Source: a virus
Strand: one strand, 5' to 3'
Virus record (IMG/VR): IMGVR_UViG_3300047494_000112
Span: 1-64,000 of that record
Length of the DNA: 64,000 nt
This document shows positions 5,409 through 51,574 of this stretch, one piece after another. The notes beneath the pieces are model-generated. The model was not told where the DNA came from. It saw only the letters and a list, made by a program, of their open reading frames with translations, and did not search any database. Both the position numbers and the translations under genes were made by a program. Each line of letters starts with the position of its first letter. Within the stretch, counting starts at the first letter, position 1.

Positions 5409-8174
5409 CTAAATTATAATGTTAGAAATAGCAACTTCATTTAGAGTAATGGTGCCATTTTTAGTGGTTTGTAGAGTATCAGTTACAACAGCATAGATTG
5501 AATTAGTAGTCGATGGAGTAATTGAAAGACTCCATGAATTATTAATAGAACTTCCACTTGCTGCTCCATAACTTGTAGCTCTATTAGAGAGTATCAAAGA
5601 TAAATTATTAGTTTGATATAGGTTAACCGTAATACTATCTGAGGGACCAAGAGTTGTTCCAGTAACAGTAAACGGAACTCCATTTGTCGCCGAAGAAGGA
5701 GCATTGATTGTTAGTAAATACTGTCCTGGTGATGGTAACGTTGGAGTTTTTAACTTTGTAGCTGTTATACTTTTTTCAAAAAATGAGGCTGAAAGATATT
5801 GAGCTACAGGAGTAATTGTAACCTTACCTGCAAAGGTCCTTAAAACTAAATAAATTGGAGCAGACTCAACCAAAAGTTGACGATATAAAGGTTCATCTAA
5901 TTCAGGAAAAGCTGAAGCATCGTAATAGACATCATAATAAGGTGTTGGAATCCACGTACCGCTACTAGATTGAGTAATCAATGTTCCAGGATTAGATGAA
6001 AGAGAAGCATACACTAATCCATTAGCATAGAGAGGTACATATTGAAAAGGTACTTGAGAAAAGAAAGATACAAAATTTGCAAACTGTTTACTGTTTCCTC
6101 TCGTTAGATAAAATGTACCCAAATATCTCATCAAACTATCATATTGATAGTATTGTAAGCCATAATCAGGAACCACAAAGCCCATTTGCCTAACTGTAGC
6201 GGCTTTCAATTCATCTTCAATGGCATTCACATTTCTAACATTTTGCAATTCATTAATTGAACTGTTGAACAAATTATTCCATTGTAGATCCATAGCTGAG
6301 ACCAAAGTCGTCCAAAAAGGATTGCTAGCATATTGTTCTGTCATCAACAAATTATAGTTTACATATTGCGTATATGTAGCTGTAGGATCTACATTGATAA
6401 ATTTGTTGTTAATAGCTTGGTTTAAAGAATAATCAGAACAATCTGACCATTGAAAAGTTAGTTTTGGATACCAGGGATAAGGTCTATCGTCCCAATAACC
6501 AGCACTCCAATTTGTAATGTTGCCATTTGGACTAGCATATTGAATGTAGGTAGAATAAATTGAGTAAAAATTACTACCTACATTATTATCTGATTGCCCA
6601 TTACTAGCAAATGGAAAGGAATATTCTCCACTAGACTGATGTAAAATTGCATCGGGTTGATTTGTCGCCAAGTTGATAGAAGGACATACAATATTGTATA
6701 GATATACAGATTTAGAGTTTGGCACCCAAGAAGTAGGAACAGACGAAAAATTGTATCCGTCAAAATTATAATGAATGTTTTCTATCCAAGCATCATAGTT
6801 TTTTAACTGCTGAATCCATGTAGTGGTGCTGGTAGGTCCTGCTATCGTTGTTCTTTGTTGATTTATTTGAGGGTCGTTAATTAGTCCATCAGCAGAATTG
6901 TAATATTCTTGATAATACCAATCCCAGTATTGTTGGCCTAAAATTCCTTCAACCAAGTAAGGCTGATTTGTCGATGCAGGATAATAAGATCCGTCTATGT
7001 TAGAGCCATAATTTCTCCAATCAGTTGTAGGAAAATTTGCCTGAATTGCAATATAAGAAATTGCACTATTCGACCACAAAGCATCCATGCTAAATATTCT
7101 AGAAGCTGTTGCAGTAAATGTAGGATATTTCTCGTTTTGAGATCCTTGCCACTCATTCCAATCAGCTACGTATGAAATATTGACACTTGTACCTAAAAAT
7201 AAGGAAGCAGATTGTTCAGCCAAAGTTATCAAATAGTCTACAGCAGGAAAATCTAAATTGACGCCTTGGGTAGAAGTCAATGTTGACAAACCTCTACCTA
7301 TATAAAAATCAGTCAGAGTTACACCACCAAACTCTTTGATAAAAGAAGAGAGCATTGTAGCATAATAAATTACAAAGTTAGAATAGGAAGTATCTAAGAT
7401 AGATTCATTATATGTTGAAGTCAATATACCTGCGCTAGAAAAAATGCAGGAATACGCTGATGTAGACTGGTTTCCAAAAAAAGTTGCAATTTGATCAGTC
7501 GCTTGAGTAGTACCAAAAGTTGAACCTGCATAGTTTTTTGCGGGAGAAATTGTTAATTGAGACGCTGGCGGGTAAGCAGGTTGACCAATTACAGAGTTGT
7601 TATCTGAGTAAGGATTTAATAAATTGTTATTTGAAGAAATGTCTGGGATAACAGTTAAACAAACAGAAACATTTATTTCTAAGGAACTTAAAGATAGTAG
7701 AAGATTTAAGATACTTTGGTCAGAAGGTGTTCCTCTAAAAGCAGGTAATCCATTTATCTGTGAAACCACATAGGCATCGGCTCGATTAATTCCTGCTACC
7801 TGCCATTCATAAGGCATTGTATCTAAAATTGCAGTTGTTACTCCTGGCTGTACATTTGTAGCAGCGCAATTTAAACTAGTTACATACCACCCAATATCTA
7901 AATGTACTTTCTTGATGTTAGGATAAGACTGTAGCATTTCATTTAAGCTAACAGTAATGTCTGTTTTTTCTGTTGTGTATTGTTGAGTATTAATGTTAAT
8001 GTAAACCTCAACAGCTTCATTTTGAGTATTAGTAATCAAAATTGGCGTCGGATCATAAGAAAATTCACCTTGACCGTTGCCTAAATGAATTTCAGTAATT
8101 GCTTGAGATATCGGAGCAACAGGTTGCGTAAGGTCCAAGGTTGCCAAGACGGGATTACTGGAAGGTAAACCCAT
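5409..8174 (-). CDS. Baseplate wedge (gp7/gpI-like) fused to an N-terminal GTA-type TIM-barrel-like domain
   Basis: Motifs GTPSDQS, FPAVDYL, ISYVADWNEW, MDALW, DWYY, WVPNSK, NQPD and WDDRPYP parallel the GTA baseplate TIM-barrel family. The C-terminal third (WTTLVSAMD...MGF...RGNSKQFANFVSF) is wedge-like. It follows the gp6-like gene. Confidence 0.7.
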   Translation of the reverse strand: MGLPSSNPVLATLDLTQPVAPISQAITEIHLGNGQGEFSYDPTPILITNTQNEAVEVYININTQQYTTEKTDITVSLNEMLQSYPNIKKVHLDIGWYVTSLNCAATNVQPGVTTAILDTMPYEWQVAGINRADAYVVSQINGLPAFRGTPSDQSILNLLLSLSSLEINVSVCLTVIPDISSNNNLLNPYSDNNSVIGQPAYPPASQLTISPAKNYAGSTFGTTQATDQIATFFGNQSTSAYSCIFSSAGILTSTYNESILDTSYSNFVIYYATMLSSFIKEFGGVTLTDFYIGRGLSTLTSTQGVNLDFPAVDYLITLAEQSASLFLGTSVNISYVADWNEWQGSQNEKYPTFTATASRIFSMDALWSNSAISYIAIQANFPTTDWRNYGSNIDGSYYPASTNQPYLVEGILGQQYWDWYYQEYYNSADGLINDPQINQQRTTIAGPTSTTTWIQQLKNYDAWIENIHYNFDGYNFSSVPTSWVPNSKSVYLYNIVCPSINLATNQPDAILHQSSGEYSFPFASNGQSDNNVGSNFYSIYSTYIQYASPNGNITNWSAGYWDDRPYPWYPKLTFQWSDCSDYSLNQAINNKFINVDPTATYTQYVNYNLLMTEQYASNPFWTTLVSAMDLQWNNLFNSSINELQNVRNVNAIEDELKAATVRQMGFVVPDYGLQYYQYDSLMRYLGTFYLTRGNSKQFANFVSFFSQVPFQYVPLYANGLVYASLSSNPGTLITQSSSGTWIPTPYYDVYYDASAFPELDEPLYRQLLVESAPIYLVLRTFAGKVTITPVAQYLSASFFEKSITATKLKTPTLPSPGQYLLTINAPSSATNGVPFTVTGTTLGPSDSITVNLYQTNNLSLILSNRATSYGAASGSSINNSWSLSITPSTTNSIYAVVTDTLQTTKNGTITLNEVAISNIII

Positions 8175-8737
8175 TAATTTTCTCCTAAATCTTTTAGTCT
8201 TTGTTTTGCAATAGGCCTAACATATTCCTCTTGATCTTTTAGCAAAGCTTTAGCATGGTTAGCATTTCCATTCCAAGCTACTGCTGCTCTTACATATCTA
8301 TTTGGATCTGAGATTAGCTTGTCTCTATGAGAATCGTTTCCATTCCAAGCTACTGCTTGTCTTACATTTGGATGTGGATCTTTTACTAGCTTGTCTCTAT
8401 GAGAATCATTTCCACTCTCAGCTACTGCATGTCTTACATACCAATCTGGATCTGAGATTAGCTTATCTCTGTGAGAGTCGTTTCCATGCTCAGCTACTGC
8501 ACGTCTTACATGCTCACTTGGATCTGAGATTAGCTTGTCTCTATGAGAATCGTTTCCATTCCAAGCTACTGCTCCTCTTATATATCTATTTGGATCTGAT
8601 ATTAGCTTATCTCTGTGAGAGTCGTTTCCATGCTCAGCTACTGCATGTCTTACATGCTCACTTGGATCTGAAACTAAAGAGTCTAAGTGTTTAGGATGAC
8701 CAATTTTAGCTAAAGCTTGGCGTTGTTTAGGTGTCAT
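8174..8737 (-). CDS. LRV/HEAT-like 24-aa repeat protein, family copy (6 repeats)
   Basis: N-cap MTPKQRQALAKIGHPKHLDS, six LxxDPxxxVRxAVAxxGNDSHRDK units and a C-cap; ATGA overlap upstream, TAATG overlap downstream. Confidence 0.92.
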   Translation of the reverse strand: MTPKQRQALAKIGHPKHLDSLVSDPSEHVRHAVAEHGNDSHRDKLISDPNRYIRGAVAWNGNDSHRDKLISDPSEHVRRAVAEHGNDSHRDKLISDPDWYVRHAVAESGNDSHRDKLVKDPHPNVRQAVAWNGNDSHRDKLISDPNRYVRAAVAWNGNANHAKALLKDQEEYVRPIAKQRLKDLGEN

Positions 8738-10368
8738 GTCAGTGAAGCCCTGTTTGATACCTGCATATTTAATGAAATGGTACCCAACGAAAGAAATTGA
8801 TTAGGCGATACAATTTGATCGGTACTAGGTTGTTGTAGCTGAACATATTGGATATTGCCATTTGGATCACTGTTGATAATTGTTTCCACAATATCAGACA
8901 TATAGATACTGTAGCCTAGAAATCCTGCTCTAGGAGTAAACAAACTAGTTAGATTGGCAATAATTAAATTTTCTAAAGTGGATAACGGAATCTGGTCAGT
9001 GCAAAATATATTTGCAGTAATGTTAACAGGAATTTGTACAGTATTTAGCTGAATAAATTGAAGATTAGCTCCGGCATAAGTTGAAAGCCAAGAAGTAAAA
9101 GCTTGAAACTGTGCTTGAGACCAATTGCTGCCTGAGGAAGGTAAGATTGCAACCTGTACTACCATCATGTAGTTTAGATTATCTGGAGCAAAAGAAGCTT
9201 GGCCTTGAAAGTACGCATCTATTACACCTGAATAGTTTAAGGCAAAAGCGTTATAATCTGATAAGGTTGAAGGTCGAACTTTTGCCGAATAAGAACCAGG
9301 AGAAATTATTTTATACTCACTAGCCAAACGTTGGTTTGAACCGTTGTTTGATGAGGTACTAGCGGTGCCCATGATTGTTATATTTTGAGATCCACTACCT
9401 GAAAAAACTGTTGTGCTGTAATTGAACATGCTTCCTTGTAGATTCAGATTACCATTTGCACCTAAGGTTGTAGCATAGGTGACCACAATTTGAGCATTAA
9501 TAGGAGGGATTACTCCATAATTGCCATCACCAAATGTAATTGTAGCGTTCCCTGAAACGTCAGTAGATTGATAATAAACTGTATCTGCAGGCCCATATTC
9601 CCAAAGCCCTGTAGCATAAAATGTTGTATACTCTGTAGGAGAATAGTTTGGTTTATCTAAAACGCTGCTGTTAACATATACTGCAATATCTTGGTCAGAG
9701 ATTGTAAAGTCAGGTGAGGTTAAGCTAAATGTTTGTAGTGCCTGCCCATTGCTATAAAAAGTTGCCGTGTTAACAGTACCTTGATATAGAGTAGCTGAAG
9801 CTGTAGTAGAGCCTACTGGAAAGAGTATTTGATTTCTATTAAAGAAATTAATTCCGCCAACGTTAAATTGAGTGTAGGAATTAATTAAAACAGAATTTGA
9901 GTAAGTTGTGGATAAAGTAAAAGTTACTCCCATTGAAGCAGGTGAACACCTTGCAATTCTAACGCCTAATAATCTAGTAATTTCATAGATAGAACTTGGT
10001 AATTGGGCAAAATCTAACATGCTTTCTTGCAAGGCTCGTTCAACTGAGAATTGATTGTAAGCTTGAGCTGTTGCAATCATTTCAATTAAAGTTTGGCCTG
10101 TTGCAGCTTCAGCAGTATTTGTCCAAGCAGGATTAGGAGAATTGTTTAAAATGCTTTGAAGTTCTGCAACATTAGATTCATAGTCCGGTTGAATTGCTGT
10201 CAAAGGCAAAGCTGCTGTCGAATATAAAGCAACATAGGTAGATAATAGCCCTTGAATAATGTTGCTATCGATACTCCCTACAGGTAAACCTAATGCTCCT
10301 GGCAAATTTTGTACAAGGTACGCTGATAAGGCTGATACGGTACTTCTAATTGGCTGATCAGCCATCAT
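8734..10368 (-). CDS. Baseplate wedge subunit (T4 gp6 / baseplate J-like)
   Basis: ERALQESMLDFAQLPSSIYEITRLLG, ITFGDGNYGVIPP and DYNAFALNYSGV motifs; follows the gp25-like gene. Confidence 0.85.
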   Translation of the reverse strand: MMADQPIRSTVSALSAYLVQNLPGALGLPVGSIDSNIIQGLLSTYVALYSTAALPLTAIQPDYESNVAELQSILNNSPNPAWTNTAEAATGQTLIEMIATAQAYNQFSVERALQESMLDFAQLPSSIYEITRLLGVRIARCSPASMGVTFTLSTTYSNSVLINSYTQFNVGGINFFNRNQILFPVGSTTASATLYQGTVNTATFYSNGQALQTFSLTSPDFTISDQDIAVYVNSSVLDKPNYSPTEYTTFYATGLWEYGPADTVYYQSTDVSGNATITFGDGNYGVIPPINAQIVVTYATTLGANGNLNLQGSMFNYSTTVFSGSGSQNITIMGTASTSSNNGSNQRLASEYKIISPGSYSAKVRPSTLSDYNAFALNYSGVIDAYFQGQASFAPDNLNYMMVVQVAILPSSGSNWSQAQFQAFTSWLSTYAGANLQFIQLNTVQIPVNITANIFCTDQIPLSTLENLIIANLTSLFTPRAGFLGYSIYMSDIVETIINSDPNGNIQYVQLQQPSTDQIVSPNQFLSLGTISLNMQVSNRASLT

Positions 10369-10856
10369 TTTTCTCCTAACTCTTTTAGTCTCTTTTTAGC
10401 TGCATCTCTGATACTACTATCTTCATCTTTTAGTAAAGCTTTTGCATAGTTAGCATTTCCATTCCTAGCTACTGCATGTCTTACATTCCAAATTGGATCT
10501 TTTACTAGCCTATCTCTATGAGAATCGTTTCCATGTGTAGCTACTGCATGTCTTACAATCCAATCTTTATCTTTTACTAGCTTGTCTCTATGAGAATCGT
10601 TTCCATTCCATGCTACTGCTGCTCTTACATGTCTATTTGGATCTGATACTAGCTTATCTCTGTGAGAGTCATTTCCACGCTCAGCTACTGCTTCTCTTAC
10701 ATACACATTTGGATCTGAAACTAGCTTGTCCCTATGAGAATCGTTTCCATGCTCAGCTACTGCTTCTCTTACATTCCAATCTGGATCTGAAACTAGCTTG
10801 TCTAAATGTTTAGGATGACCAATTTCAGCTAAAGCTTGGCGTTGGTTAGGTGTCAT
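10365..10856 (-). CDS. LRV/HEAT-like repeat protein, family copy (5 repeats)
   Basis: Same N-cap, repeat and C-cap; ATGA overlaps at both ends. Confidence 0.92.
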   Translation of the reverse strand: MTPNQRQALAEIGHPKHLDKLVSDPDWNVREAVAEHGNDSHRDKLVSDPNVYVREAVAERGNDSHRDKLVSDPNRHVRAAVAWNGNDSHRDKLVKDKDWIVRHAVATHGNDSHRDRLVKDPIWNVRHAVARNGNANYAKALLKDEDSSIRDAAKKRLKELGEK

Positions 10857-11274: not shown

Positions 11275-11919
11275 CTAATAATCCGTTTGACCAGAAAAGC
11301 TAGTGTTAGCGGGAGTTTCTCTAACTATAGGGGTTAAATTTGAAGCTGGATTAGAGCCTGTGTTTAAATTTATTTTTGTTCCTGTTAGATTAATTTTGCC
11401 ACTTGAATAAATGCTACAATCTCCAGTGGCATTTACATTTAACGATGAACTAGATACAATGTTGATTACGCCATTACTAAACTGAATATATGACCCATCA
11501 ACCATGTTATATGTCCATGTCTTGGACACTGTATCAACCTTAAAAAGATTACCAGCAGCATCAACCCATCCATATTGAGTAGGTGCAGTAAAATCTATTA
11601 GTTTACTAGACTGATCCATTGAACTACCAAGCCAATAAGTGTTCACAGCATCATTTTCAGGAAAATAGACAGCAACCTTACTACCATTTACAGGTACTCC
11701 AAAACCTCCTATGCCTGGGGCATTCCCTTGAAATAGATTTTGAATAGGTAAGGTCCAAGGCAAGACAGCATCTTGATAACCTTGATGAAGTAATCCAATA
11801 CGTACCTGCAAGCGTTGAATTCCCATTGGATCATTATTGTTAACAACATAGCCAAATAAAATTTGACCTGTTAAATTGTAAGACTGAGATTGATTATCTA
11901 ATCCATTCAAAATGGTCAT
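11275..11919 (-). CDS. Baseplate central spike (gp5/gpV-like OB-fold plus beta-repeat)
   Basis: GYVVNNNDPMGIQRLQVRI...PW...VPVNGSKVAVYF OB-fold motif; C-terminal short beta repeats ending GTKINLN. Confidence 0.85.
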   Translation of the reverse strand: MTILNGLDNQSQSYNLTGQILFGYVVNNNDPMGIQRLQVRIGLLHQGYQDAVLPWTLPIQNLFQGNAPGIGGFGVPVNGSKVAVYFPENDAVNTYWLGSSMDQSSKLIDFTAPTQYGWVDAAGNLFKVDTVSKTWTYNMVDGSYIQFSNGVINIVSSSSLNVNATGDCSIYSSGKINLTGTKINLNTGSNPASNLTPIVRETPANTSFSGQTDY

Positions 11920-12554
11920 ACATTATGTCCTAACTCTTTTATTCTAACTCTTGCAGCAGTACTAACATATTTCTCTTTATCATTTAGCAAAGCTTTAGCA
12001 TGGTTAGTGTTTCCATACTTAGCTACTGCATATCTTACAGATGAATTTTTATCTTTTACTAGCTTATCTCTATGAGAGTCGTTTCCATGCTGAGCTACTA
12101 AATATTTTACATCTGGATCTTTATCTTTTACTAGCTTGTCTCTATGAGAATCGTTTCCATGCTCAGCTACTGCATATCTTACACCTACATGTGGATCTGA
12201 AATTAGCTTGTCTCTATGGGAATCATTTCCATGCTGAGCTACTGTATATCTTACAGAATAATCTGGATCTGAAATTAATTTGTCCCTTTGAGAGTCATTT
12301 CCAATTCTAGCTACTGCTTGTCTTACAGACGAATCTTTATCTTTTACTAGCTTGTCTCTATGAGAATCGTTTCCATGCTCAGCTACTGCATATCTTACAA
12401 TCCAATCTGGATCTGATATTAGCTTATCTCTATGGGAGTCGTTTCCATTCCTAGCTACTGCTTGTCTTACATTAAAATTTGAATCTGAAACTAGCTTATC
12501 TAAATGCTTAGGATGACCAATTTGAGCTAGAGCTTGGCGTTGGTTAGGTGTCAT
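11916..12554 (-). CDS. LRV/HEAT-like repeat protein, family copy (7 repeats)
   Basis: Same architecture; sits between the hub and spike genes with ATGA overlaps on both sides. Confidence 0.92.
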   Translation of the reverse strand: MTPNQRQALAQIGHPKHLDKLVSDSNFNVRQAVARNGNDSHRDKLISDPDWIVRYAVAEHGNDSHRDKLVKDKDSSVRQAVARIGNDSQRDKLISDPDYSVRYTVAQHGNDSHRDKLISDPHVGVRYAVAEHGNDSHRDKLVKDKDPDVKYLVAQHGNDSHRDKLVKDKNSSVRYAVAKYGNTNHAKALLNDKEKYVSTAARVRIKELGHNV

Positions 12555-24880: not shown

Positions 24881-24894
24881 GTCTTACCTTAAAT

Positions 24895-36016: not shown

Positions 36017-36437
36017 TACTCTTTACTCCTAATTCTTTTAGTCTATTTCTTGCAGCGTGTTTAATAGACTCATCTTTATCATTCAATAGAGCTTTTGCGT
36101 GGTCAAGGTTTCCTTTCATAGCTACAGCTCTTCGTACTTCAGGAGAATAATCATGCAATAGCTTGTCTCTGTGCGAATCGTTTCCAGTCCAAGCGACAGT
36201 TCGTCTTACGGTAAAATCTTCATCATGCAATAGCTTGTCTCTATGGAAATCATTTCCATGGATAGCGACGGCACCTTTTATATCAGGATTATCAGAATGC
36301 ACTAGCTTATCTCTATGAAAGTCGTTTCCATGCCAAGCAACTCTTAATCTTACTCCAAAATTTTTATCCTCGACTAGCTTATCTAAGTGCTTAGGATGAC
36401 CAATGGTAGCTAGAGCTATGCGTTGTTTAATGTTCAT
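36009..36437 (-). CDS. LRV/HEAT-like repeat protein, more diverged family copy (4 repeats)
   Basis: MNIKQRIALATIGHPKHLDK cap; GND(F/S)HRDKL framework; KELGVK C-cap. Confidence 0.9.
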   Translation of the reverse strand: MNIKQRIALATIGHPKHLDKLVEDKNFGVRLRVAWHGNDFHRDKLVHSDNPDIKGAVAIHGNDFHRDKLLHDEDFTVRRTVAWTGNDSHRDKLLHDYSPEVRRAVAMKGNLDHAKALLNDKDESIKHAARNRLKELGVKSND

Positions 36438-39434: not shown

Positions 39435-39447
39435 TATAGCCTCCTAA

Positions 39448-40589: not shown

Positions 40590-40590
40590 T

Positions 40591-41082
40591 CTATTTAACT
40601 CCTAACTCTTTTAGTCTCTGTTTTGCAGTATTTCTAACATATTTATCTTTATCTTTTAGTAAAGCTCTTGCATGGTTAGCATTTCCATTCCTAGCTACTG
40701 CATGTCTTATATATCTATCTGGATCTGAAATTAGCTTGTCTCTATGAGAATCATTTCCATTCTCAGCTACTGCTGCTCTTACAAACTCACTTGGATCTGA
40801 GACTAGCTTGTCTCTATGAGAATCGTTTCCATGCTCAGCTACTAAATATCTTACATTCTCATTTGGATCTGAAACTAGCTTATCTCTATGAGAGTCGGTT
40901 CCATGTGTAGCTACTGCATGTCTTATATTCTCATCTTTATCTTTAACTAGCTTATCTCTATGAGAGTCGTTTCCATTCCTAGCTACTGCTGCTCTTACAG
41001 ACTCACTTGGATCTGACACTAGCTTATCTAAGTGCTTAGGATGACCTATAGTAGCTAAAGCTTTGCGTTGTTTAGGTGTCAT
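40591..41082 (-). CDS. LRV/HEAT-like repeat protein, family copy (5 repeats)
   Basis: Canonical caps and repeats; TCATGA junction upstream. Confidence 0.92.
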   Translation of the reverse strand: MTPKQRKALATIGHPKHLDKLVSDPSESVRAAVARNGNDSHRDKLVKDKDENIRHAVATHGTDSHRDKLVSDPNENVRYLVAEHGNDSHRDKLVSDPSEFVRAAVAENGNDSHRDKLISDPDRYIRHAVARNGNANHARALLKDKDKYVRNTAKQRLKELGVK

Positions 41083-44450: not shown

Positions 44451-44762
44451 TTAATAGGGAAGAGTATAATCTGTAAACTCATTAGCTATTCTATCATGAG
44501 CATGACTTCTAACATTAAGATCTGAATCGTGACTCAGTTTTTTCAAATGGTCGTAATTGCCAAATTCAGCAACTGTTTCTCTAACCAAAGGATTCTTGCT
44601 CTTGATCAGTCTATCTCTGTGTTCATCTGTACCATACTGAGCCAAGTCTACATGATATCTAGGATTCTTGAAAAACTTTTTAATGTGCTTTGGATGACCA
44701 ATTTGTATTAACGCTGGTATACTATCCCATTTGATTGCACTCTTTAGCTTTTCCTTAGCCAT
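44451..44762 (-). CDS. Diverged LRV/HEAT-like repeat protein
   Basis: QIGHPKH cap; YGTDEHRDRLIKSKNPLVRETVAEFGN. Confidence 0.8.
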   Translation of the reverse strand: MAKEKLKSAIKWDSIPALIQIGHPKHIKKFFKNPRYHVDLAQYGTDEHRDRLIKSKNPLVRETVAEFGNYDHLKKLSHDSDLNVRSHAHDRIANEFTDYTLPY

Positions 44763-45768
44763 AACCTTCAGCCTTCAATTGGTCATATGAATCTTTGTAA
44801 TGAGGATCATCTCTATGAGGTTCAACTTTTGACAAAGGTATTTTGTTTTCTTTAATGTATCGGTACTGTTCATGCCAAGGATGATGAATTGCTACAATGT
44901 TTTCAGAGGGTACATCGATTTTAGAATAGGTAGGCGAATATTTGTAATGATCAGGGTCGTCGTGAAACTCTACAATTGAGCCGAATCCGTTACTATACCT
45001 TTTAGCATGAGACGCTTTGTCATGCGAATAAATACCTAATGGTCCTTCATAGCCTTTGGCATCTGATAAGCGTAATCCGTGTTTTTCAATACTAGGTATG
45101 TTTGAAGGTCTGGTAACATGAAATCTACGCATACGGCCTTCAGGTATTGGAGACTGGCCCATTTCAGGTGGTACAGGTTTAACCGAAGCTGTTACCTGAT
45201 TGTTAGGCTTTACACCGGCTAGTCTTTTCAAGCGCAATTTTGCTGCATTTGAAACTTGCTTGACAGAGTCTTGGGTTAGTTTTTCAGCATGTTCTTTGTT
45301 GGCGTTTTGCGCTACGTTTAATCTAACGCGTCTATCAGGATCTTGAAGTAATTTTTCTCTGTGAGCATCAGAACCATGACGGGCTATAAATTTTCGAACT
45401 TGATAGCTTTTATCATTGATTAGTTTATCTCTGTTAGAATCGTTACCATGCCAAGCTATATAAGATCTACCGACAGCATTAAGACATTTTTTATCTAACA
45501 GAAAATGTCTAATTTTGTCACTACCTACTTCAGCCAAATGTAAGCCTAGATTGTGTTTAGTTGCTTGACCTTGTATAGTTTTAGGTTTAAACGCTGGCAG
45601 TTGATCACTTAATTTTTCTTTAAACTCTTCATTACCATGATCTAGTAAAGCATGACCTAGTCGTTCATTATCCCAATTTGCGTCTTCAACTTGATACGAG
45701 TCTAGATGTTTATTTACATGTTTAGGGTGACCTATTTTAACTTTGGCTATTTCTTGATCCCAGTTCAT
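44755..45768 (-). CDS. Fusion: diverged LRV/HEAT repeats plus C-terminal ART-fold (Tpt1/DarT-like) domain
   Basis: KIGHPKH cap and HGNDSNRDKLINDKSYQVR repeats; QVTAS linker; RFHVTRPSNIPSIEKHGL...GIYS...IVEF. Confidence 0.75.
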   Translation of the reverse strand: MNWDQEIAKVKIGHPKHVNKHLDSYQVEDANWDNERLGHALLDHGNEEFKEKLSDQLPAFKPKTIQGQATKHNLGLHLAEVGSDKIRHFLLDKKCLNAVGRSYIAWHGNDSNRDKLINDKSYQVRKFIARHGSDAHREKLLQDPDRRVRLNVAQNANKEHAEKLTQDSVKQVSNAAKLRLKRLAGVKPNNQVTASVKPVPPEMGQSPIPEGRMRRFHVTRPSNIPSIEKHGLRLSDAKGYEGPLGIYSHDKASHAKRYSNGFGSIVEFHDDPDHYKYSPTYSKIDVPSENIVAIHHPWHEQYRYIKENKIPLSKVEPHRDDPHYKDSYDQLKAEGYG

Positions 45769-47708
45769 CTTTTACCTACTTCAACCAAAGTTTTTACAAC
45801 CTTGTTTGCCTTTCTTAAAGCTAGTGCTCTAGCTCTTCTATCCGCCAAGGCTTTAGCTATGGTTTTCATGGTCTTCTCTTTGATAACCTTTTGTCCTTTG
45901 GCAGAAATGTTTATCCTTTTTCCACCTTCTCCAAAAGCGCCGGTGTCAACACTTGGATCATAATCTCTATGCAGAGACATGTTTGCTCCAACACCAAATC
46001 TTGACATGCTCTTTAAAGCAGAGCCAACAAATTGTTGAGACTGATCATCGCCACCAGCCTCTTGCTGAGATTGTTGCTGCAATTGCTGCGTCATTTCATC
46101 AATTTGAGCATTGTACATTGCAATTTTTTTTCGCATTGCCAAGTCTTCTTGAAAATTTGCAACAATTTGATTGATATCTAACGAACCAGCAGCAGCAAGC
46201 ATGGCAATGGGAACAGGAATACCCATACCGTTCATATCGTTTAGCATTTGCAAGTAAGCTTGATCTCCTTCGGGCGACAAGTGTTTGTGATAAACGACCT
46301 TTGGAATTAACAGGTCATGCGTATCCATATCAACGCCAGCAATTGTTTTGTGGCGATGACGTGGGATTACATCATTGTATAAACGTCTATTAGCAATACG
46401 ATAAATGCGTTCATCATCAGTTTCAATGCGAGGTCCACTAGAGCCTGTTACCTGATATCGACGTTCTTCTCTAAAATCGTTAGCTGCTGAAATTGCGGGA
46501 AATAGCTTTTCATAAAACAAGCCAGTAGTAATTTTAGCACGAAAAGTACGAATATTATCAAGCATAACTGATAGAGAAGCATCCAAAGTTGAAAGAGAAA
46601 CTTCTCCAGTTAGTATACCCTCTGATAAGCCAAAGGCTCTATACTTGTTTGCTGAAGCATACTCGAAAACTTGATCTACGTTCCAAAACTCACCAGCAGC
46701 ACGAATTTCGTTTGTATTGACGCCTGTACGAGTGACAATTATAGCACCAGTTGGATCCAAATCTCCTTGTAGAAATAAATCACGAAAAGACTCTAAATCA
46801 GATTGAGTTGGAATCCATTCGTCATCGCCACCTACCATTACATGTAGCAAAGCTCTTTGACGTCTATTAGCCACGTCAATTGTACCGCGCATTAGAGCTT
46901 TTTCAATTAAATGAACAGGCAAAACTCTTTCATACATGCTAACGCCAAATGGTTCAGCAGTCATTGTTCTACGTGGAATATAGATAGTGTTGGCTGGCTC
47001 TAACGGAATACGTCCCTGCTTGATCTTTTCAATGAATTCTTGAGGAATATGTGACATTACTTGAGCAACACGAGGATCATTTGATTGCATGATCTTACTC
47101 AAGTCTTTAGGCATAATCAAGTCAATTATAGGATCAACGCCAAAGAGAGGAATGTTGACAATTTCAGTATTATCAATTGATTGCGGAAGAACTGCTGTAA
47201 ATACTTTTTCGTCTTGTTCAAATATTGCATTACCAATAAACGCACCTAATACCTGATAGTCTAAAGATATACCTGGTAGTAACGCACGTAAATGTAGACC
47301 TTCTAAAGATTGATGAAATTTTTCAAGGATATCTTTATCTTTAATACCTGATAAATGAAAATCAGAAAAAGGCAAATTTGCATAAACGTCAGCCGCTCCG
47401 CCACACACAGGATCATGGTAGTACATGTCACGAAATATCTTACGCTTAATACGGGGATCTTCAACAAAAATATTTTCGAGAGTAGCTCTTGAAACGTTTG
47501 AGCTGGTTTGAGTTTGCCCTATTGAGGTTCTACCTCCTTGCTGAGTTTGATCCCAAGCTTCCACGTTATGTTTTCTCAACTTGTCAGCTTGAGCTTGTAC
47601 ACCAGCCGTAATTTCTAATCGTTTTTGAGTAGCAGGCTTTAGATTAGATACTAAAGTAGGGCCTGTGTCCGTACTTGCTACAGTAAAATTACGATTTAGC
47701 TTAATCAT
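45765..47708 (-). CDS. Portal protein
   Basis: 647 aa; YYHDPVCGGAADVY, GNAIF and IYIPRR...GVSMYERVL motifs; located between terminase and protease. Confidence 0.8.
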   Translation of the reverse strand: MIKLNRNFTVASTDTGPTLVSNLKPATQKRLEITAGVQAQADKLRKHNVEAWDQTQQGGRTSIGQTQTSSNVSRATLENIFVEDPRIKRKIFRDMYYHDPVCGGAADVYANLPFSDFHLSGIKDKDILEKFHQSLEGLHLRALLPGISLDYQVLGAFIGNAIFEQDEKVFTAVLPQSIDNTEIVNIPLFGVDPIIDLIMPKDLSKIMQSNDPRVAQVMSHIPQEFIEKIKQGRIPLEPANTIYIPRRTMTAEPFGVSMYERVLPVHLIEKALMRGTIDVANRRQRALLHVMVGGDDEWIPTQSDLESFRDLFLQGDLDPTGAIIVTRTGVNTNEIRAAGEFWNVDQVFEYASANKYRAFGLSEGILTGEVSLSTLDASLSVMLDNIRTFRAKITTGLFYEKLFPAISAANDFREERRYQVTGSSGPRIETDDERIYRIANRRLYNDVIPRHRHKTIAGVDMDTHDLLIPKVVYHKHLSPEGDQAYLQMLNDMNGMGIPVPIAMLAAAGSLDINQIVANFQEDLAMRKKIAMYNAQIDEMTQQLQQQSQQEAGGDDQSQQFVGSALKSMSRFGVGANMSLHRDYDPSVDTGAFGEGGKRINISAKGQKVIKEKTMKTIAKALADRRARALALRKANKVVKTLVEVGKR

Positions 47709-47717
47709 TTTGTATTC

Positions 47718-48143
47718 CTATTTGGCAAAGTTTAAAAACGCTTTTAGTCTATTTTTTGCACTAGACCTAACTTTGCTATCTTTATCTTTTAGTAAAGCTT
47801 TAGCATGGTTAGCATTTCCATTCCTAGCTACTGCATATCTTACATGCCAATCTGGATCTGAAACTAGCTTGTCTCTATGGTAATCGTTTCCATGCCTAGC
47901 TACTGCTTCTCTTACATACTCATCTGGATCAGAAACTAGCTTATCTCTATGAGAATCATTTCCATCAGTAGCTACTGCTTCTCTTACATGCCAATCTGGA
48001 TCTGATACTAGCCTATCTCTATGAGAGTCGTTTCCATGCTTAGCTACTGCACGTCTTACATATGCCTCTGGATCTGATATTAAAGAGTCTAAATGTTTAG
48101 GATGGCTAATTGAAGCTAAAGCTTGACGTTGGTTAGGTGTCAT
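47718..48143 (-). CDS. LRV/HEAT-like repeat protein, family copy (4 repeats, altered C-terminus)
   Basis: Canonical repeats; ends RLKAFLNFAK instead of RLKELG. Confidence 0.92.
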   Translation of the reverse strand: MTPNQRQALASISHPKHLDSLISDPEAYVRRAVAKHGNDSHRDRLVSDPDWHVREAVATDGNDSHRDKLVSDPDEYVREAVARHGNDYHRDKLVSDPDWHVRYAVARNGNANHAKALLKDKDSKVRSSAKNRLKAFLNFAK

Positions 48144-48145: not shown

Positions 48146-48709
48146 TTATTTAACTCCTAATGCTTTTAGTCTTTGTTTTGCAGCAAGTCTAACTTCTTTA
48201 TCTTGATCTTTTAGTAAAGCTTTAGCATGGTTAGCATTTCCATGTGCAGCTACTGCATATCTTACATATTCCTCTGGATCCGAAACTAGCTTGTCTCTAT
48301 GGGAATCATTTCCATGCTGAGCTACTGCATATCTTACATCTGTATCTTTATCTTTTACTAGCTTATCTCTATGGGAATCATTTCCACGCTCAGCTACTGC
48401 ATATCTTACATCTGTATCTTTATCTTTTACTAGCTTATCTCTATGAGAGTCGTTTCCATGCTCAGCTACAGTCTGTCTTACATATCTATTTGGATCTTTT
48501 ACTAGCTTATCTCTGTGAGAAGGGTTTCCATGCTTAGCTACTGCTTCTCTTATAGACGAATCTTTATCTGAAATTAGCTTATCTCTGTGAGAATCGTTTC
48601 CATTCTCAGCTACTGCATATCTTACAGACGAATCTTTATCTTTAATTAGTTTATCTAAATGTTTAGGATGACCAATTTCAGCTAAAGCTTGGCGTTGGTT
48701 AGGTGTCAT
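48146..48709 (-). CDS. LRV/HEAT-like repeat protein, family copy (6 repeats)
   Basis: Canonical; contains two adjacent near-identical DKDTDVRYAVA units. Confidence 0.92.
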   Translation of the reverse strand: MTPNQRQALAEIGHPKHLDKLIKDKDSSVRYAVAENGNDSHRDKLISDKDSSIREAVAKHGNPSHRDKLVKDPNRYVRQTVAEHGNDSHRDKLVKDKDTDVRYAVAERGNDSHRDKLVKDKDTDVRYAVAQHGNDSHRDKLVSDPEEYVRYAVAAHGNANHAKALLKDQDKEVRLAAKQRLKALGVK

Positions 48710-49038
48710 TTAGTGTATCCTATCGAGTGCATGTGAATCTCATGACCACCATCTGTCTTTTTAATCTGAATTGATACATCACGTTTAGGTGAAACCCAAT
48801 GCGTTCTATTGCCAGGTACTAGTGGAGACATTTCTTGACGTAAAAATTTGTGCATAGGTAAAGGCATATCATCAGCCGCATGGCGCATTACAACCTTTGT
48901 GGTTTGGATTCTTTCTTTAGACTCAGGATCAGTGATCTTGCCCATTTTTGTCATAGACATTGTGTAGCCACAGCCTTTTTTGCCAAGGCAAACTTTGCTA
49001 GCTTTTAAAATTAAAGGGTGGGCAAGTGGCTCTGACAT
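48706..49038 (-). CDS. Hypothetical protein
   Basis: 110 aa, coupled on both sides to repeat genes. Confidence 0.65.
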   Translation of the reverse strand: MSEPLAHPLILKASKVCLGKKGCGYTMSMTKMGKITDPESKERIQTTKVVMRHAADDMPLPMHKFLRQEMSPLVPGNRTHWVSPKRDVSIQIKKTDGGHEIHMHSIGYTK

Positions 49039-49529
49039 TACTGTAATCCTAAATCTTTTAGTCTTTGTTTTGCACTAGACCTAACTTCGCTATCTTTATC
49101 GTTCAGTAAAGCTCTTGCATGGTTAGCATTTCCATTCTCAGCTACTGCCCATCTTACATATGCCTCTGGATCTGATACTAGCCTATCTCTATGAGAATCG
49201 TTTCCATTCTCAGCTATCTCACGTCTCACCTTCCAATTTGGATCTGATACTAGCCTATCTCTATGAGAATCGTTTCCATTCTCAGCTACTGCACGTCTTA
49301 CATCTCGATCTTTATCTGAAACTAGCTTGTCTCTATGGGAGTCATTTCCATTCCAAGCTACTGCACGTCTCACATGCCAATCTGGATCTGATACTAGCCT
49401 ATCTCTATGAGAGTCGTTTCCATTCCATGCTACTGCTGCTCTTACATCTACCTCTGGATCTGAAACTAGCTTATCTAAATGCTTAGGATGACCAATTTCA
49501 GCTAAAGCTTGGCGTTGGTTAGGTTTCAT
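49038..49529 (-). CDS. LRV/HEAT-like repeat protein, family copy (5 repeats)
   Basis: Canonical caps and repeats. Confidence 0.92.
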   Translation of the reverse strand: MKPNQRQALAEIGHPKHLDKLVSDPEVDVRAAVAWNGNDSHRDRLVSDPDWHVRRAVAWNGNDSHRDKLVSDKDRDVRRAVAENGNDSHRDRLVSDPNWKVRREIAENGNDSHRDRLVSDPEAYVRWAVAENGNANHARALLNDKDSEVRSSAKQRLKDLGLQ

Positions 49530-49760
49530 TTAATCTTCTTTAACAGGGATACAGGTTCTAGCTCCTAGATCAACCCACATGCTAAATTCCTTGCCCTGGA
49601 AAGAACCTTTAACGAGCTGCATAGGTTGTTTTGATGCTGACGAAAGAGGAGGTTTTTCTGTAGCAGCCACCAATGAACTAATAACCTCAACCTTTGCTTT
49701 AATTACTTTTTTGTCGGCTTCAGGATTACAAAACAATGGGTCAATTAATTCTCTAGTCAT
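49530..49760 (-). CDS. Hypothetical protein
   Basis: 76 aa between repeat genes; TAATG coupling. Confidence 0.6.
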   Translation of the reverse strand: MTRELIDPLFCNPEADKKVIKAKVEVISSLVAATEKPPLSSASKQPMQLVKGSFQGKEFSMWVDLGARTCIPVKED

Positions 49761-50179
49761 TACTGTGCTCCTAAATCTTTTAGTCTATTTTTTGCAATAG
49801 ACCTAACATATTTATCTTCATCTTTTAGTAAAGCTCTTGCATGGTTAGCGTTTCCATTCCAAGCTACTGCTTGTCTTACATCTGAATCTGAATCTGAAAT
49901 TAGCTTGTCTCTATGAGAGTCATTTCCATGCTGAGCTACTGTATATCTTACACCTACATGTGGATCTGAAATTAGTTTGTCTCTATGAGAATCGTTTCCA
50001 TGCTCAGCTACTGCATATCTTACACCTACATGTGGATCTGAAATTAGCTTGTCTCTATGGGAATCATTTCCATGCTGAGCTACTGTATATCTCACATGCC
50101 AATCTGGATCTGAAACTAGCTTATCTAAATGCTTAGGATGGCCAATTTTAGCTAAAGCTATGCGTTGGTTAGGTGTCAT
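49760..50179 (-). CDS. LRV/HEAT-like repeat protein, family copy (4 repeats)
   Basis: Canonical; two DPHVG units. Confidence 0.92.
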   Translation of the reverse strand: MTPNQRIALAKIGHPKHLDKLVSDPDWHVRYTVAQHGNDSHRDKLISDPHVGVRYAVAEHGNDSHRDKLISDPHVGVRYTVAQHGNDSHRDKLISDSDSDVRQAVAWNGNANHARALLKDEDKYVRSIAKNRLKDLGAQ

Positions 50180-50181: not shown

Positions 50182-50601
50182 TTATTTTTCTCTTAACTCT
50201 TTTAGTCTTTGTTTTGCAATAGACCTAACATCATCATCTTCATCTTTTAGTAAAGCTTTAGCATGGTTAGCGTTTCCATTCCATGCTACTGCTTCTCTTA
50301 CATTCTCATCTGGATCTTTAATTAGCTTGTCTCTATGAGAGTCGTTTCCATTCCTAGCTACTGCATGTCTTACATTCCAATCTGGATCTGAAATTAATTT
50401 ATCTCTATGGGAATCGTTTCCATTCCTAGCTACTGAACGTCTTACATATCTATTTGGATCTGATATTAGCTTATCTCTGTGAGAATCGTTTCCATTCTCA
50501 GCTACTGCTGCTCTTACATATTCCTCTGGATCTTTTACTAGCTTGTCTAAATGCTTAGGATGACCAATTAAAGCTAAAACTATGCGTTGGTTAGGTGTCA
50601 T
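50182..50601 (-). CDS. LRV/HEAT-like repeat protein, family copy (4 repeats)
   Basis: Canonical; TCATGA junction upstream. Confidence 0.92.
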   Translation of the reverse strand: MTPNQRIVLALIGHPKHLDKLVKDPEEYVRAAVAENGNDSHRDKLISDPNRYVRRSVARNGNDSHRDKLISDPDWNVRHAVARNGNDSHRDKLIKDPDENVREAVAWNGNANHAKALLKDEDDDVRSIAKQRLKELREK

Positions 50602-50942
50602 GACGTACCTTGCAATTTCTGTGCTGCATACTTTTTGACGGTGTCATTAGGATCTTTTGTTAGCATTGAAGCTAAATTACGATCAGCATTTTTAGCTACA
50701 GCAATACGAACAATAGCTTCAGGGTCATGCACAAGCATTGATACAAATTTAATTACTCCAGTCATGGCCACAGCTTTTCTAACCAAAGGATCTGGATCTT
50801 TAACATACTTTAAAAGAGCAGTAGGGTTACCTGACCGTATTTCGGTATACTTTTGATGGTGTACTTTACGCAAAGATGCACCAGATTTGTTGTCTGGTGC
50901 TTGTTGCTGTAGTGCAGGAATGTTTGCAAAATCAGAGCTCAT
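50598..50942 (-). CDS. Distantly related HEAT-like repeat protein
   Basis: YVKDPDPLVRKAVA, LVHDPEAIVRIAVA, LTKDPNDTVKKYA; lacks the family caps. Confidence 0.75.
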   Translation of the reverse strand: MSSDFANIPALQQQAPDNKSGASLRKVHHQKYTEIRSGNPTALLKYVKDPDPLVRKAVAMTGVIKFVSMLVHDPEAIVRIAVAKNADRNLASMLTKDPNDTVKKYAAQKLQGTS

Positions 50943-51574
50943 GACTCACCTAACTCTTTTAATCTATGTCTTGCAATAGGCCTAACATTATCATCTTTAT
51001 CGTTCAGTAAAGCTCTTGCATGGTTAGCGTTTCCATCCCAAGCTACTGCTGCTCTTACAAACTCACTTGGATCTGAGATTAGCTTGTCTCTATGAGAGTC
51101 GTTTCCATTCTCAGCTATCACACGTCTTACATTCGGATTTGGATCTGAAATTAATTTATCTCTATGGGAGTCGTTTCCATGCTCAGCTACTGCATATCTT
51201 ACATTCCATTTTGGATCTTTAATTAGCTTATTTCTATGGTAATCGTTTCCATGCTTAGCTACTACATATCTTACTCCTGCATTTGAATCTGATACTAGCT
51301 TATCCTTGTGAGAGTCATTTCCATGCTGAGCTACTGCTTCCCTTACATTCCAGTGTGTATCTGAAACTAGCTTATCTCTATGAGAATCGTTTCCATTTAT
51401 AGCTACTGCACGTCTTACATACCAATCTGGATCTGAAACTAGCTTATCCTTATGGGAATCGTTTCCACTTATAGCTACTGCATGTCTTATATACACATTT
51501 GGATCTGAAACTAGCTTGTCTAAATGTTTAGGATGACCAATTTTAGCTAGAGTTAAGCGTTGTTTAGTATTCAT
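50939..51574 (-). CDS. LRV/HEAT-like repeat protein, family copy (7 repeats)
   Basis: Canonical; C-cap AGGTGAG RBS and TCATGA overlap with the next gene. Confidence 0.92.
   Translation of the reverse strand: MNTKQRLTLAKIGHPKHLDKLVSDPNVYIRHAVAISGNDSHKDKLVSDPDWYVRRAVAINGNDSHRDKLVSDTHWNVREAVAQHGNDSHKDKLVSDSNAGVRYVVAKHGNDYHRNKLIKDPKWNVRYAVAEHGNDSHRDKLISDPNPNVRRVIAENGNDSHRDKLISDPSEFVRAAVAWDGNANHARALLNDKDDNVRPIARHRLKELGES

What the first reader, a model, noticed from the sequence alone, without database searches (positions are those of the whole stretch)
8174..51574. Genome-dispersed library of modular 24-aa LRV/HEAT repeat proteins (N-cap + 4-7 repeats + C-cap)
Seen: 11 near-identical genes (8174, 10365, 11916, 32864, 40591, 47718, 48146, 49038, 49760, 50182, 50939) plus a diverged one (36009). 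They share the cap MTPxQRxALAxIGHPKHLDK, the unit LxxD(P/K)xxxVRxxVAxxGNDSHRDK and the cap GNANHAxALLxDxxxxVRxxAKxRLKxLG. Lengths step by 24 aa (139/163/187/211), giving 60 units in total in the 11 copies. Framework codons differ mainly at synonymous sites (AAC/AAT, GAT/GAC, TCT/TCC), so selection acts on the protein. Established: LRV/HEAT solenoids bind partners through one variable helix face. Inference: this is a natural, expanding binder repertoire (alphaRep/VLR-like) in a phage, plausibly virion-associated or anti-defence. I do not know of a described phage system like this.
Basis: partly seen in the sequence, partly recalled or inferred. Interest (0 to 1): 0.92.

Follow-up and report, generated by a model that had tools for sequence, protein, structure and literature searches.

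The report
Phage family of variable LRV-repeat proteins
An uncultured giant phage from a moss metagenome carries about 19 small helical-repeat (LRV/HEAT-like) genes with an almost fixed scaffold and a highly varied surface, slotted between its virion genes, so it looks like a natural library of binding proteins whose targets are unknown.

Summary
The window holds 12 capped 24-aa repeat genes, 60 units in the 11 near-identical ones. The 187-kb record adds 3 intact copies and 1 frameshifted copy: 19 genes, about 5.4% of the DNA.

The fold is LRV. 1LRV is the best match by sequence (E 1.5e-14) and by structure (TMq 0.79), and the model has pLDDT 96.8.

Scaffold DNA is nearly invariant even at synonymous sites, apart from C/T toggles in codons 18-23. 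Positions 5-8, 11, 15 and 16 are hypervariable, rich in H, W, Y, N and E, and assort freely. Of 79 units, 77 are distinct.

Identical blocks of 82-116 nt sit in different array positions of genes 22-38 kb apart. No reverse transcriptase was found.

Copies join their neighbours by ATGA/TAATG overlaps inside late operons (baseplate; terminase to portal), beside ADP-ribosyltransferase and SprT-like genes.

Function is inferred only. My best reading is a diversified binder repertoire used against host proteins, possibly packaged in the head.

No paper describing this was found. This scan noted similar families in at least six other phage genomes.

The parts
8174..8737 (-). LRV copy, 187 aa, 6 units; lies between the gp6-like wedge gene and the 921-aa tail protein gene
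10365..10856 (-). LRV copy, 163 aa, 5 units; lies between the gp25-like and gp6-like genes; this copy was modelled
11916..12554 (-). LRV copy, 212 aa, 7 units; lies between a 393-aa protein gene and the gp5-like spike gene
32864..33499 (-). LRV copy, 211 aa, 7 units, TTG start
36009..36437 (-). Moderately diverged LRV copy, 142 aa, 4 units; joined by an ATGA overlap to the SprT-like gene upstream
40591..41082 (-). LRV copy, 163 aa; joined by an ATGA overlap to the Alt-like ADP-ribosyltransferase gene upstream
44451..44762 (-). Strongly diverged LRV-like gene, 103 aa, between the fusion gene and the protease region
44755..45768 (-). Fusion, 337 aa: N-cap-like start, 3 LRV units and a C-cap-like stretch, then a ~140-aa C-terminal domain with weak ADP-ribosyltransferase-fold leads; lies directly downstream of the portal gene
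47718..48143 (-). LRV copy, 141 aa, 4 units, altered C-cap end; last gene before the portal gene
48146..48709 (-). LRV copy, 187 aa, 6 units
49038..49529 (-). LRV copy, 163 aa, 5 units
49760..50179 (-). LRV copy, 139 aa, 4 units; shares a 116-nt exact block with copy 11916, out of register
50182..50601 (-). LRV copy, 139 aa, 4 units
50598..50942 (-). Strongly diverged LRV-like gene, 114 aa
50939..51574 (-). LRV copy, 211 aa, 7 units; first of the cluster downstream of the terminase gene
52133..54310 (-). Context: terminase large subunit, head of the long operon
45765..47708 (-). Context: portal protein. Phage NCTB has one gene between terminase and portal; this phage has 4.4 kb there, holding 7 canonical LRV genes, 1 diverged one and other small genes
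41079..42797 (-). Context: 572-aa ADP-ribosyltransferase (Pfam ADPrib_exo_Tox)
36434..37390 (-). Context: SprT-like zinc metallopeptidase, 318 aa

Best explanation
This is a lineage-specific, expanded family of small capped LRV-type alpha-solenoids. All members share one scaffold. They differ on one face of the long helix of each 24-aa unit and in the loop before it. I read them as a germline-encoded repertoire of binding modules, each with its own specificity.

Diversity appears to arise in three ordinary ways: unit duplication, block transfer (gene conversion) between dispersed copies, and point change retained by selection. No dedicated mutagenesis machine is needed.

The genes have no visible promoters of their own. 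They are translationally coupled to late virion genes, so they should be made together with virion proteins.

The most likely role is recognition of host (or rival-element) proteins in phage-host conflict. They could act as stand-alone inhibitors or as targeting arms for the ADP-ribosyltransferase and peptidase effectors encoded in the same operon. They may be packed into the head and injected.

Shown here: family, fold, pattern of variation, mosaicism, operon embedding.
Inferred: binding, targets, packaging.
For: Fold:
- Pfam HEAT scores above its cut-off in all 5 copies tested. Pfam LRV does so in 2 of 5.
- 1LRV matches at E 1.5e-14 by sequence.
- The AF2 model has pLDDT 96.8, and 1LRV is its top structural hit (TMq 0.79, rmsd 2.6 A), followed by designed alphaRep binders.

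Library signature:
- In 79 units the framework is nearly invariant. Positions 5-8, 11, 15 and 16 have entropies of 1.3-2.9 bits.
- Helix A spans unit positions 7-16, so positions 7, 8, 11 and 15 share one helical face.
- NG86 dN/dS is 1.74 at the variable codons and 0.42 in the framework. Variable-codon pN (0.44) is 3.7 times the synonymous diversity of the helix-A framework (0.12).
- 77 of 79 units are distinct, with 76 distinct 7-residue signatures. The sub-blocks show no significant association except a marginal one between position 11 and 15-16 (p=0.03). H is enriched 5.3-fold, W 5.1-fold, Y 2.8-fold; aliphatic residues are depleted.

Shuffling:
- Exact blocks of 116 and 82 nt are shared out of register between genes 38 and 22 kb apart.
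- The nearest neighbour of a copy's N-cap differs from that of its C-cap, and homology between copies stops at the ORF ends.
- Adjacent near-duplicate units occur within single genes.

Context:
- Most copies have ATGA or TAATG overlaps with their neighbours.
- No gap or terminator-like site stands out between terminase and about 30.9 kb.
- The copies lie among terminase, portal, protease and baseplate genes.
- Phage NCTB, the nearest terminase relative, has only one gene between terminase and portal.

Link to effectors:
- One member is fused to a domain with ADP-ribosyltransferase-fold leads.
- An Alt-like ADP-ribosyltransferase gene and a SprT-like peptidase gene are each joined by an ATGA overlap to an LRV copy.
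- The nearest LRV arrays elsewhere carry LPD28, YodL, NikA, MobC and a weak LPD1. Several of these are domains of polyvalent proteins, which are proposed to enter the cell with invading DNA (PMC5512222).
- That paper also links Alt-family genes placed beside baseplate genes to late translation and head packaging.
- LRV copies and their head-module neighbours are basic (pI about 9) and His-rich.
Against: - There are no expression, proteomic or binding data. No RNA run holds the sequence.
- In the only cultured phage with relatives (vB_VmeM-32), the LRV genes sit in early, hyperplastic regions and not in virion operons. Late expression or packaging is therefore not a general trait of the family.
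- No protease-cleavable targeting leader is evident. The conserved N-cap looks like a structural half-repeat.
- The ADP-ribosyltransferase assignment of the fused domain is weak: Pfam PARP E 0.03, Atlas TM about 0.5, and my own model has pLDDT 47.
- dN/dS across paralogous repeats that undergo gene conversion is only a rough measure.
Confidence: 0.45

Rival explanations
1. The copies are assembly accessories or structural decoration. Each LRV copy would be a chaperone, scaffold or decoration protein that binds the virion protein encoded next to it, and would be made in step with it through translational coupling.
For: - ATGA/TAATG coupling to gp25-like, gp6-like, spike, portal and other virion genes.
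- The copies lie wholly inside late operons.
Against: - Seven copies stand in a row between terminase and portal, so there is no one-to-one pairing.
- Relatives with the same terminase and portal lack them.
- One copy is frameshifted, so at least that one is dispensable.
- Units move between copies, which would scramble any cognate specificity.
- Relatives in vB_VmeM-32 lie in early regions.
Confidence: 0.15
2. The copies are modular nucleic-acid readers, as in PUF, PPR or TALE proteins. Each unit would contact one base through its variable residues, giving sequence-specific RNA or DNA binders.
For: - The solenoid has one variable residue cluster per unit.
- Variable residues are dominated by N, E, H, D, Y, W, R and Q, as at base-contacting positions of PUF and TALE proteins (my own knowledge).
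- The proteins are mildly basic, pI about 9.
Against: - The vocabulary is far too large for a four-letter code: 45 different 4-residue blocks and 76 signatures in 79 units.
- I know of no LRV protein that binds nucleic acid.
- Net charge is only +2 to +7.
Confidence: 0.1
3. The family is a selfish or nearly neutral cassette. The ORF would spread through gene junctions by illegitimate or short-homology recombination and persist without benefit to the phage.
For: - Homology between copies ends exactly at the ORF borders.
- Copies sit at junctions while preserving translational coupling.
- One copy is a pseudogene.
Against: - No mobility enzyme is linked to the copies.
- 15 of 16 canonical copies are intact.
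- Core framework positions have pN of 0-0.06.
- The family takes about 5.4% of a genome whose size is capped by the capsid.
- Variation is confined to one helix face instead of being spread at random.
Confidence: 0.07
4. Variation comes from targeted hypermutation by a diversity-generating retroelement or a similar mutagenic system.
For: Variation is tightly localised in an otherwise invariant DNA scaffold.
Against: - No reverse transcriptase (PF00078) is found in the 187-kb record.
- Variable codons differ at all three positions and use all four bases.
- The same variable blocks recur in several genes, which fits recombination and not de novo mutagenesis.
- Caveat: the record is estimated to be only 81% complete.
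Confidence: 0.03

Closest known systems
Leucine-rich repeat variant protein of Azotobacter vinelandii (PDB 1LRV; Pfam PF01816 LRV)
   Same: 24-residue unit; solenoid of alternating long and short helices; best match by sequence (E 1.5e-14) and by structure (TMq 0.79).
   Different: 1LRV is a single bacterial protein of unknown function with an N-terminal iron-sulfur domain (my own knowledge). Here there are about 19 short capped paralogues with no extra domain except in one fusion, an invariant scaffold and a hypervariable face.
alphaRep, the designed HEAT-like repeat binder library (PDB 3LTJ, 4JW2, 4XL5; PMC3754942)
   Same: N-cap, a variable number of identical-scaffold units, and a C-cap. 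Variation is restricted to a few positions of one helix. These are the second-best structural matches.
   Different: alphaRep is man-made, with 31-aa units and positions randomised by design. The phage family is natural, has 24-aa units and draws on a limited, reused vocabulary.
Hypervariable repeat-protein families found by computational mining (TALE-like, Flavobacterium and Dictyostelium LRR families; PMC10392669)
   Same: Multigene families with a fixed repeat scaffold, a few hypervariable residues rich in Y, D, H and N, and rearrangement of units between paralogues.
   Different: Those are LRR or TALE folds in cellular genomes. The paper text I searched has no HEAT or LRV term and no phage-encoded family.
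Ankyrin-repeat multigene families of poxviruses and giant viruses
   Same: Large DNA viruses that carry tens of paralogous repeat-protein genes, thought to bind host proteins (my own knowledge; ankyrin proteins appear as weak structural neighbours).
   Different: Different fold and eukaryotic hosts; often fused to F-box-like domains; no near-invariant DNA scaffold.
T4 internal head proteins and Alt (packaged, injected effectors)
   Same: Genes for small basic proteins and ADP-ribosyltransferases placed among late virion genes. PMC5512222 links that placement to packaging.
   Different: No capsid-targeting leader or protease site was recognised in the LRV copies, and packaging is untested.
LRV/HEAT genes of Vibrio phage vB_VmeM-32 (PHROG phrog_20647, function unknown)
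   Same: The only cultured phage in the collection with relatives: about 50% identity and about 5 genes. They are also the top viral structural matches.
   Different: Fewer and more diverged copies, with different caps. They lie in early, hyperplastic regions with their own terminators.

Membership tests
LRV repeat (Pfam PF01816 / 1LRV) | Tandem repeat with a period of 24 residues | tested here: met
   All spacings between units are exactly 24 aa in all 15 intact copies.
LRV repeat (Pfam PF01816 / 1LRV) | Match to the family profile above the curated cut-off | tested here: inconclusive
   LRV scores 31.9 and 24.9 bits against a cut-off of 21.6 in 2 of 5 copies, 20.7 in a third, and gives no hit in 2. 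PF02985 HEAT is above its cut-off in all 5. The profile match to the 1LRV chain has E 1.5e-14.
LRV repeat (Pfam PF01816 / 1LRV) | Solenoid of alternating longer and shorter helices | tested here: met
   The AF2 model has pLDDT 96.8, with 10-residue and 7-residue helices alternating. 1LRV is the top hit in the PDB, TMq 0.79, rmsd 2.6 A.
Diversity-generating retroelement target | Reverse transcriptase plus template repeat; adenine-directed changes | tested here: not met
   No PF00078 match in the record. Changes involve all bases and all codon positions. The record is estimated 81% complete.
Capsid-packaged internal proteins (T4 IPI-III / Alt type) | N-terminal targeting leader removed by the prohead protease; presence in the virion | not testable with these tools
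   There is only context: late operon, basic His-rich composition, neighbouring ADP-ribosyltransferase genes. No conserved L/I-x-E site was seen in the N-cap by eye.
Polyvalent proteins of phages and conjugative elements (PMC5512222) | Several unrelated effector domains in one large polypeptide | tested here: not met
   Window copies are 139-212 aa with repeats only, plus one fusion with a single extra domain. Related LRV arrays elsewhere do carry LPD28, YodL and a weak LPD1.
ADP-ribosyltransferase fold (C-terminal domain of 44755-45768) | Significant profile or structural match, and a catalytic motif | tested here: inconclusive
   Pfam PARP gives E 0.032, below its cut-off. The Atlas feature search gives clusters with PARP (16% of members) and Tox-ART-HYD1 (71%). 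The Atlas structure search gives Tpt1/KptA (TM 0.45-0.51), PARP (0.53 by query) and DUF3990 (0.52 by query). There is no PDB sequence hit, and my own model is too poor to search with (pLDDT 47.5).

The most novel reading that the evidence does not exclude
The family could be a phage germline 'repertoire' of recognition arms. Under this reading, dispersed copies continually exchange units out of register to create new specificities. The products would be loaded into the head together with ADP-ribosyltransferase and peptidase effectors. After injection they would steer those enzymes to many different host proteins, or block those proteins directly. It would be a viral counterpart of cassette-built receptor repertoires, and the scan's notes suggest it recurs in several lineages of large phages.
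Probability: 0.15. Interest if true: 0.92.

Novelty: new variant of a known kind. Interest (0 to 1): 0.76.

Why it matters
If these proteins are specific binders, large phages carry ready-made, evolvable libraries of a very small, stable scaffold (139-212 aa, model pLDDT 96.8).

Three things would follow:
- It would open a new chapter in phage-host conflict: many inhibitors or targeting arms built from one scaffold.
- It would explain a widespread class of unannotated phage genes (phrog_20647, and 'LRV' proteins of uncultured phages).
- It would give protein engineers a natural 24-aa alternative to alphaRep and DARPin scaffolds, with a vocabulary of surface residues already tested by nature.

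The way the genes are slotted into operon junctions without breaking translational coupling also bears on how phage genomes gain accessory genes.

Tried and rejected
- IMG/VR scans found no sister genome. I tried cap peptides, portal peptides and a 48-nt framework DNA pattern.
- The metagenome scan returned only two ~1-kb contigs at 60% identity.
- Other cap-sharing relatives (P0046, P0064) also lie on ~1.2-kb contigs, so cassette occupancy could not be compared between strains.
- Sequencing runs: one DNA holder (moss metagenome, probably the source sample) and no RNA holder listed.
- Laying its Logan contigs on the cluster gave fragmented pieces that cross-map between paralogues. These cannot separate population variants from paralogue differences.
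- Complex prediction of the Alt-like ADP-ribosyltransferase with the adjacent LRV copy was not folded, because the tool declines toxin-like chains.
- The AF2 model of the fusion's C-terminal domain was too poor to search with (pLDDT 47.5).
- The PDB profile search for that domain found nothing.
- Sigma-70 promoter-like and terminator-like scans found no more sites than shuffled sequence gives.
- A diversity-generating retroelement was considered and rejected.
- A DNA-mimic anti-restriction role was considered and rejected, because the proteins are basic and not acidic.
- Literature searches found no description of such a phage family.

Full report
**Observation.**
- Each has a 20-aa N-cap (MTPxQRxALAxIGHPKHLDK), then 4-7 units of exactly 24 aa, then a 23-aa C-cap (LLKDxxxxVRxxAKxRLKxLGxx). 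The last unit carries GNANHAKA in place of GNDSHRDK.
- The count of 60 units in the 11 near-identical copies is exact.
- Three diverged members in the window were missed: 44451-44762 (103 aa), 50598-50942 (114 aa) and 44755-45768 (337 aa: repeats plus an extra C-terminal domain).
- The window is the first 64 kb of a 187,324-bp IMG/VR virus record, estimated 81% complete.
- That record holds three more intact copies (177814-178449, 178452-179090, 180691-181182) and one copy broken by a 1-nt deletion inside TCT-CAT (183415-183907).
- An HMM of the unit finds 19 genes in all. By my sum of their lengths this is about 10.1 kb, or 5.4% of the record.

**What phage.** PHROG and Pfam scans give the following map on the minus strand:

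| Gene | Window coordinates |
|---|---|
| Terminase large subunit | 52133-54310 |
| Portal | 45765-47708 |
| Prohead protease | 43114-43932 |
| Major head protein | 26977-28095 |
| Tail sheath | 21276-23612 |
| Tail tube | 19605-20135 |
| gp5-like spike | 11275-11919 |
| gp25-like | 10853-11272 |
| gp6-like wedge | 8734-10368 |

The nearest terminases belong to jumbo phages: Phage NCTB at 38% identity, and Erwinia, Xanthomonas and Vibrio jumbo phages at 33-37%. The only public run that holds the sequence is a moss metagenome. The host is unknown.

**Fold.**
- Pfam HEAT is above its cut-off in all five copies tested, and Pfam LRV in two of five.
- A profile of three copies hits the 1LRV chain at E 1.5e-14. 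Designed alphaRep proteins follow weakly.
- An AF2 model of copy 10365-10856 has mean pLDDT 96.8. Its 10-residue helices (unit positions 7-16) alternate with 7-residue helices (positions 19 to 1 of the next unit).
- Foldseek puts 1LRV first (TMq 0.79, rmsd 2.6 A), then alphaRep binders.
- Among viral models, the best matches are two unnamed entries at 50% and 42% identity (one of 320 aa, the length of the vB_VmeM-32 HEAT repeat protein). 'Leucine rich repeat variant' proteins of uncultured phages follow. None has a known function.

**Pattern of variation.** I analysed 79 units, leaving out the diverged copy 36009.
- The framework is almost invariant at the DNA level: CTA 72/79, GAT 79/79 at position 4, GGA 79/79, GTA 75/75, AGA 77/78, GCT 75/78.
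- Only codons 18-21 and 23 show evenly split C/T synonymous toggles.
- Amino-acid variation is concentrated at positions 5-8, 11, 15 and 16, with binary V/I and S/K choices at positions 2 and 3.
- Positions 7, 8, 11 and 15 lie within about 100 degrees of arc on helix A. Positions 5-6 are in the loop before it. They therefore form one surface.
- Nei-Gojobori estimates give dN/dS of 1.74 at the variable codons and 0.42 in the framework. Nonsynonymous diversity at variable codons (0.44) is 3.7 times the synonymous diversity of the helix-A framework codons (0.12).
Its stated basis is incomplete, though. The near-absence of synonymous change in most of the scaffold points to recent common ancestry or homogenisation, with diversity held only on the surface.

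**Combinatorial character**.
- 77 of 79 units are distinct, with 76 distinct 7-residue signatures.
- They are built from a limited vocabulary: 45 blocks at positions 5-8, 9 residues at position 11, and 20 pairs at positions 15-16.
- The blocks at 5-8 show no association beyond chance with position 11 or with 15-16 (permutation p 0.11 and 0.38). Position 11 against 15-16 is marginal (p 0.03).
- Variable positions are enriched in His (5.3-fold), Trp (5.1-fold), Tyr (2.8-fold), Asn and Glu. They are depleted in aliphatic residues, as is usual for binding surfaces.

**How diversity arises.**
- Exact tracts of 116 nt (11916 units 3-5 against 49760 units 0-2) and 82 nt (10365 unit 0 against 32864 unit 4) link genes 38 and 22 kb apart, at different array positions.
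- The nearest neighbour of a copy's N-cap is usually not the nearest neighbour of its C-cap.
- Adjacent near-duplicate units occur inside 48146, 49760 and 180691.
- This fits unit duplication plus out-of-register gene conversion between dispersed copies.
- No reverse transcriptase is present, and the changes are not adenine-directed. A diversity-generating retroelement is therefore rejected.
- One frameshifted copy indicates birth-and-death turnover.

**Placement.**
- Most copies start in an ATGA overlap with the stop codon of the upstream gene. Several end in TAATG/TGATG overlaps with the next start, where the L-G-E codons of the C-cap supply a GGAG.
- Similarity between copies stops at the ORF borders.
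- The apparent gaps at 49530-49759 and 40444-40590 read, by eye, as small ORFs.
- Promoter-like and terminator-like sites are no more frequent than in shuffled sequence. The first strong hairpin terminators after the terminase gene lie at 30651-30936.
- The copies therefore appear to be co-transcribed and co-translated with late virion genes.
- In Phage NCTB one gene separates terminase and portal. Here 4.4 kb lies between them, holding seven canonical copies and one diverged copy. The cluster is a lineage-specific insertion.

**Functional leads.**
- The head module between the portal gene and about 33 kb also encodes a 572-aa ADP-ribosyltransferase (Pfam ADPrib_exo_Tox) and a SprT-like metallopeptidase. 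Each is joined by an ATGA overlap to the LRV copy that follows it.
- It also encodes the LRV fusion, whose C-terminal domain gives only weak ADP-ribosyltransferase-fold leads:
  - Atlas features: clusters carrying PARP and Tox-ART-HYD1.
  - Atlas structure: Tpt1/KptA, PARP and DUF3990 at TM of about 0.5.
  - Pfam PARP at E 0.03.
- This domain also exists without repeats in another contig (P0163).
- The closest LRV arrays elsewhere include 1300-aa proteins with an N-terminal region and 20-30 units (P0001, P0002; weak LPD1). Others carry DUF7666, LPD28, YodL, NikA or MobC.
- LPD domains and YodL are components of 'polyvalent proteins', which are proposed to enter cells with invading DNA. The same paper notes that Alt-family ADP-ribosyltransferase genes sit beside baseplate genes in keeping with late translation and head packaging (PMC5512222).
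- LRV copies and their head-module neighbours are basic and His-rich.
- Against a general virion role: the ~5 LRV genes of the cultured T4-like Vibrio phage vB_VmeM-32 lie in early, hyperplastic regions.

**Interpretation.** My best reading (0.45) is a germline repertoire of binding modules used in phage-host conflict. In this phage they are made late, and they may be packaged as inhibitors or as targeting arms for the neighbouring effectors.

Rivals:
- Assembly or decoration accessories, 0.15.
- Modular nucleic-acid readers, 0.10.
- Selfish cassette, 0.07.
- Targeted hypermutation, 0.03.

**Novelty.**
- LRV repeats are known, and so are designed repeat-binder libraries and hypervariable repeat families in cells (PMC3754942, PMC10392669).
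- I found no paper on such a family in phages.
- The scan's own unchecked notes list comparable dispersed LRV families in at least six other phage genomes. Two follow-ups propose head-packaged 'plug-in arms' and ADP-ribosyltransferase-like heads joined to repeat arrays. I treat these as leads only.
- I rate it a new variant of a known kind, with high but not top interest, because function remains untested.

Noticed in passing
window 43862-44437 (-): This 191-aa ORF overlaps the start of the protease ORF. By eye it carries R / S-T-T / E-type ADP-ribosyltransferase motifs (YLRG, GYMSTT, QKEMILP). PHROGs labels it only as part of a 'head maturation protease' family. With 41079-42797 and the fusion 44755-45768, it would be the third ADP-ribosyltransferase-like gene in the head module.
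   Followed up: no
window 36434-37390 (-): A SprT-like zinc metallopeptidase (Pfam E 1.4e-7, above its cut-off) lies inside the head module and is joined by an ATGA overlap to LRV copy 36009.
   Followed up: partly
window 8174-51574, unit codons 18-23: Evenly split C/T synonymous toggles occur only in the GNDSHRD stretch. Other two-fold codons (GAT at positions 4 and 6) never vary. The toggles cut what would be a 36-nt perfect repeat present about 80 times, and the median longest exact match between copies is only 33 nt. They may limit harmful recombination between copies that flank essential genes.
   Followed up: partly
window 40444-40590 and 49530-49759 (-): These apparent intergenic gaps read as small ORFs: a very basic peptide of about 48 aa after copy 40591, and a 76-aa ORF between copies 49760 and 49038. 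Both are joined to their neighbours by overlapping stop and start codons.
   Followed up: no
window 33496-34674, 38715-40443, 42798-43112 (-): Several head-module proteins of unknown function are basic (pI 9.3-10.2) and unusually His-rich (6-10%), like the LRV copies. The 392-aa protein ends in a degenerate stretch that resembles an LRV C-cap.
   Followed up: no
window 24881-25015 and 30651-30936: These two are true intergenic regions with strong GC-rich hairpins followed by T runs. They are likely the ends of the late operons.
   Followed up: no
P0001, P0002 (proteins from the representative library): These 1300-1342-aa proteins have an N-terminal region of about 600 aa (HEYGH motif, weak LPD1 match) followed by 20-30 LRV units of the same 24-aa type. 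They look like polyvalent proteins with very long LRV arrays.
   Followed up: partly
window 37387-37767 (-): This 126-aa protein has a short stretch (YHISSPKNHESIKKIGLRS) that resembles the start of the fusion's C-terminal domain. BLAST E is only 1.3, so it may be chance.
   Followed up: partly
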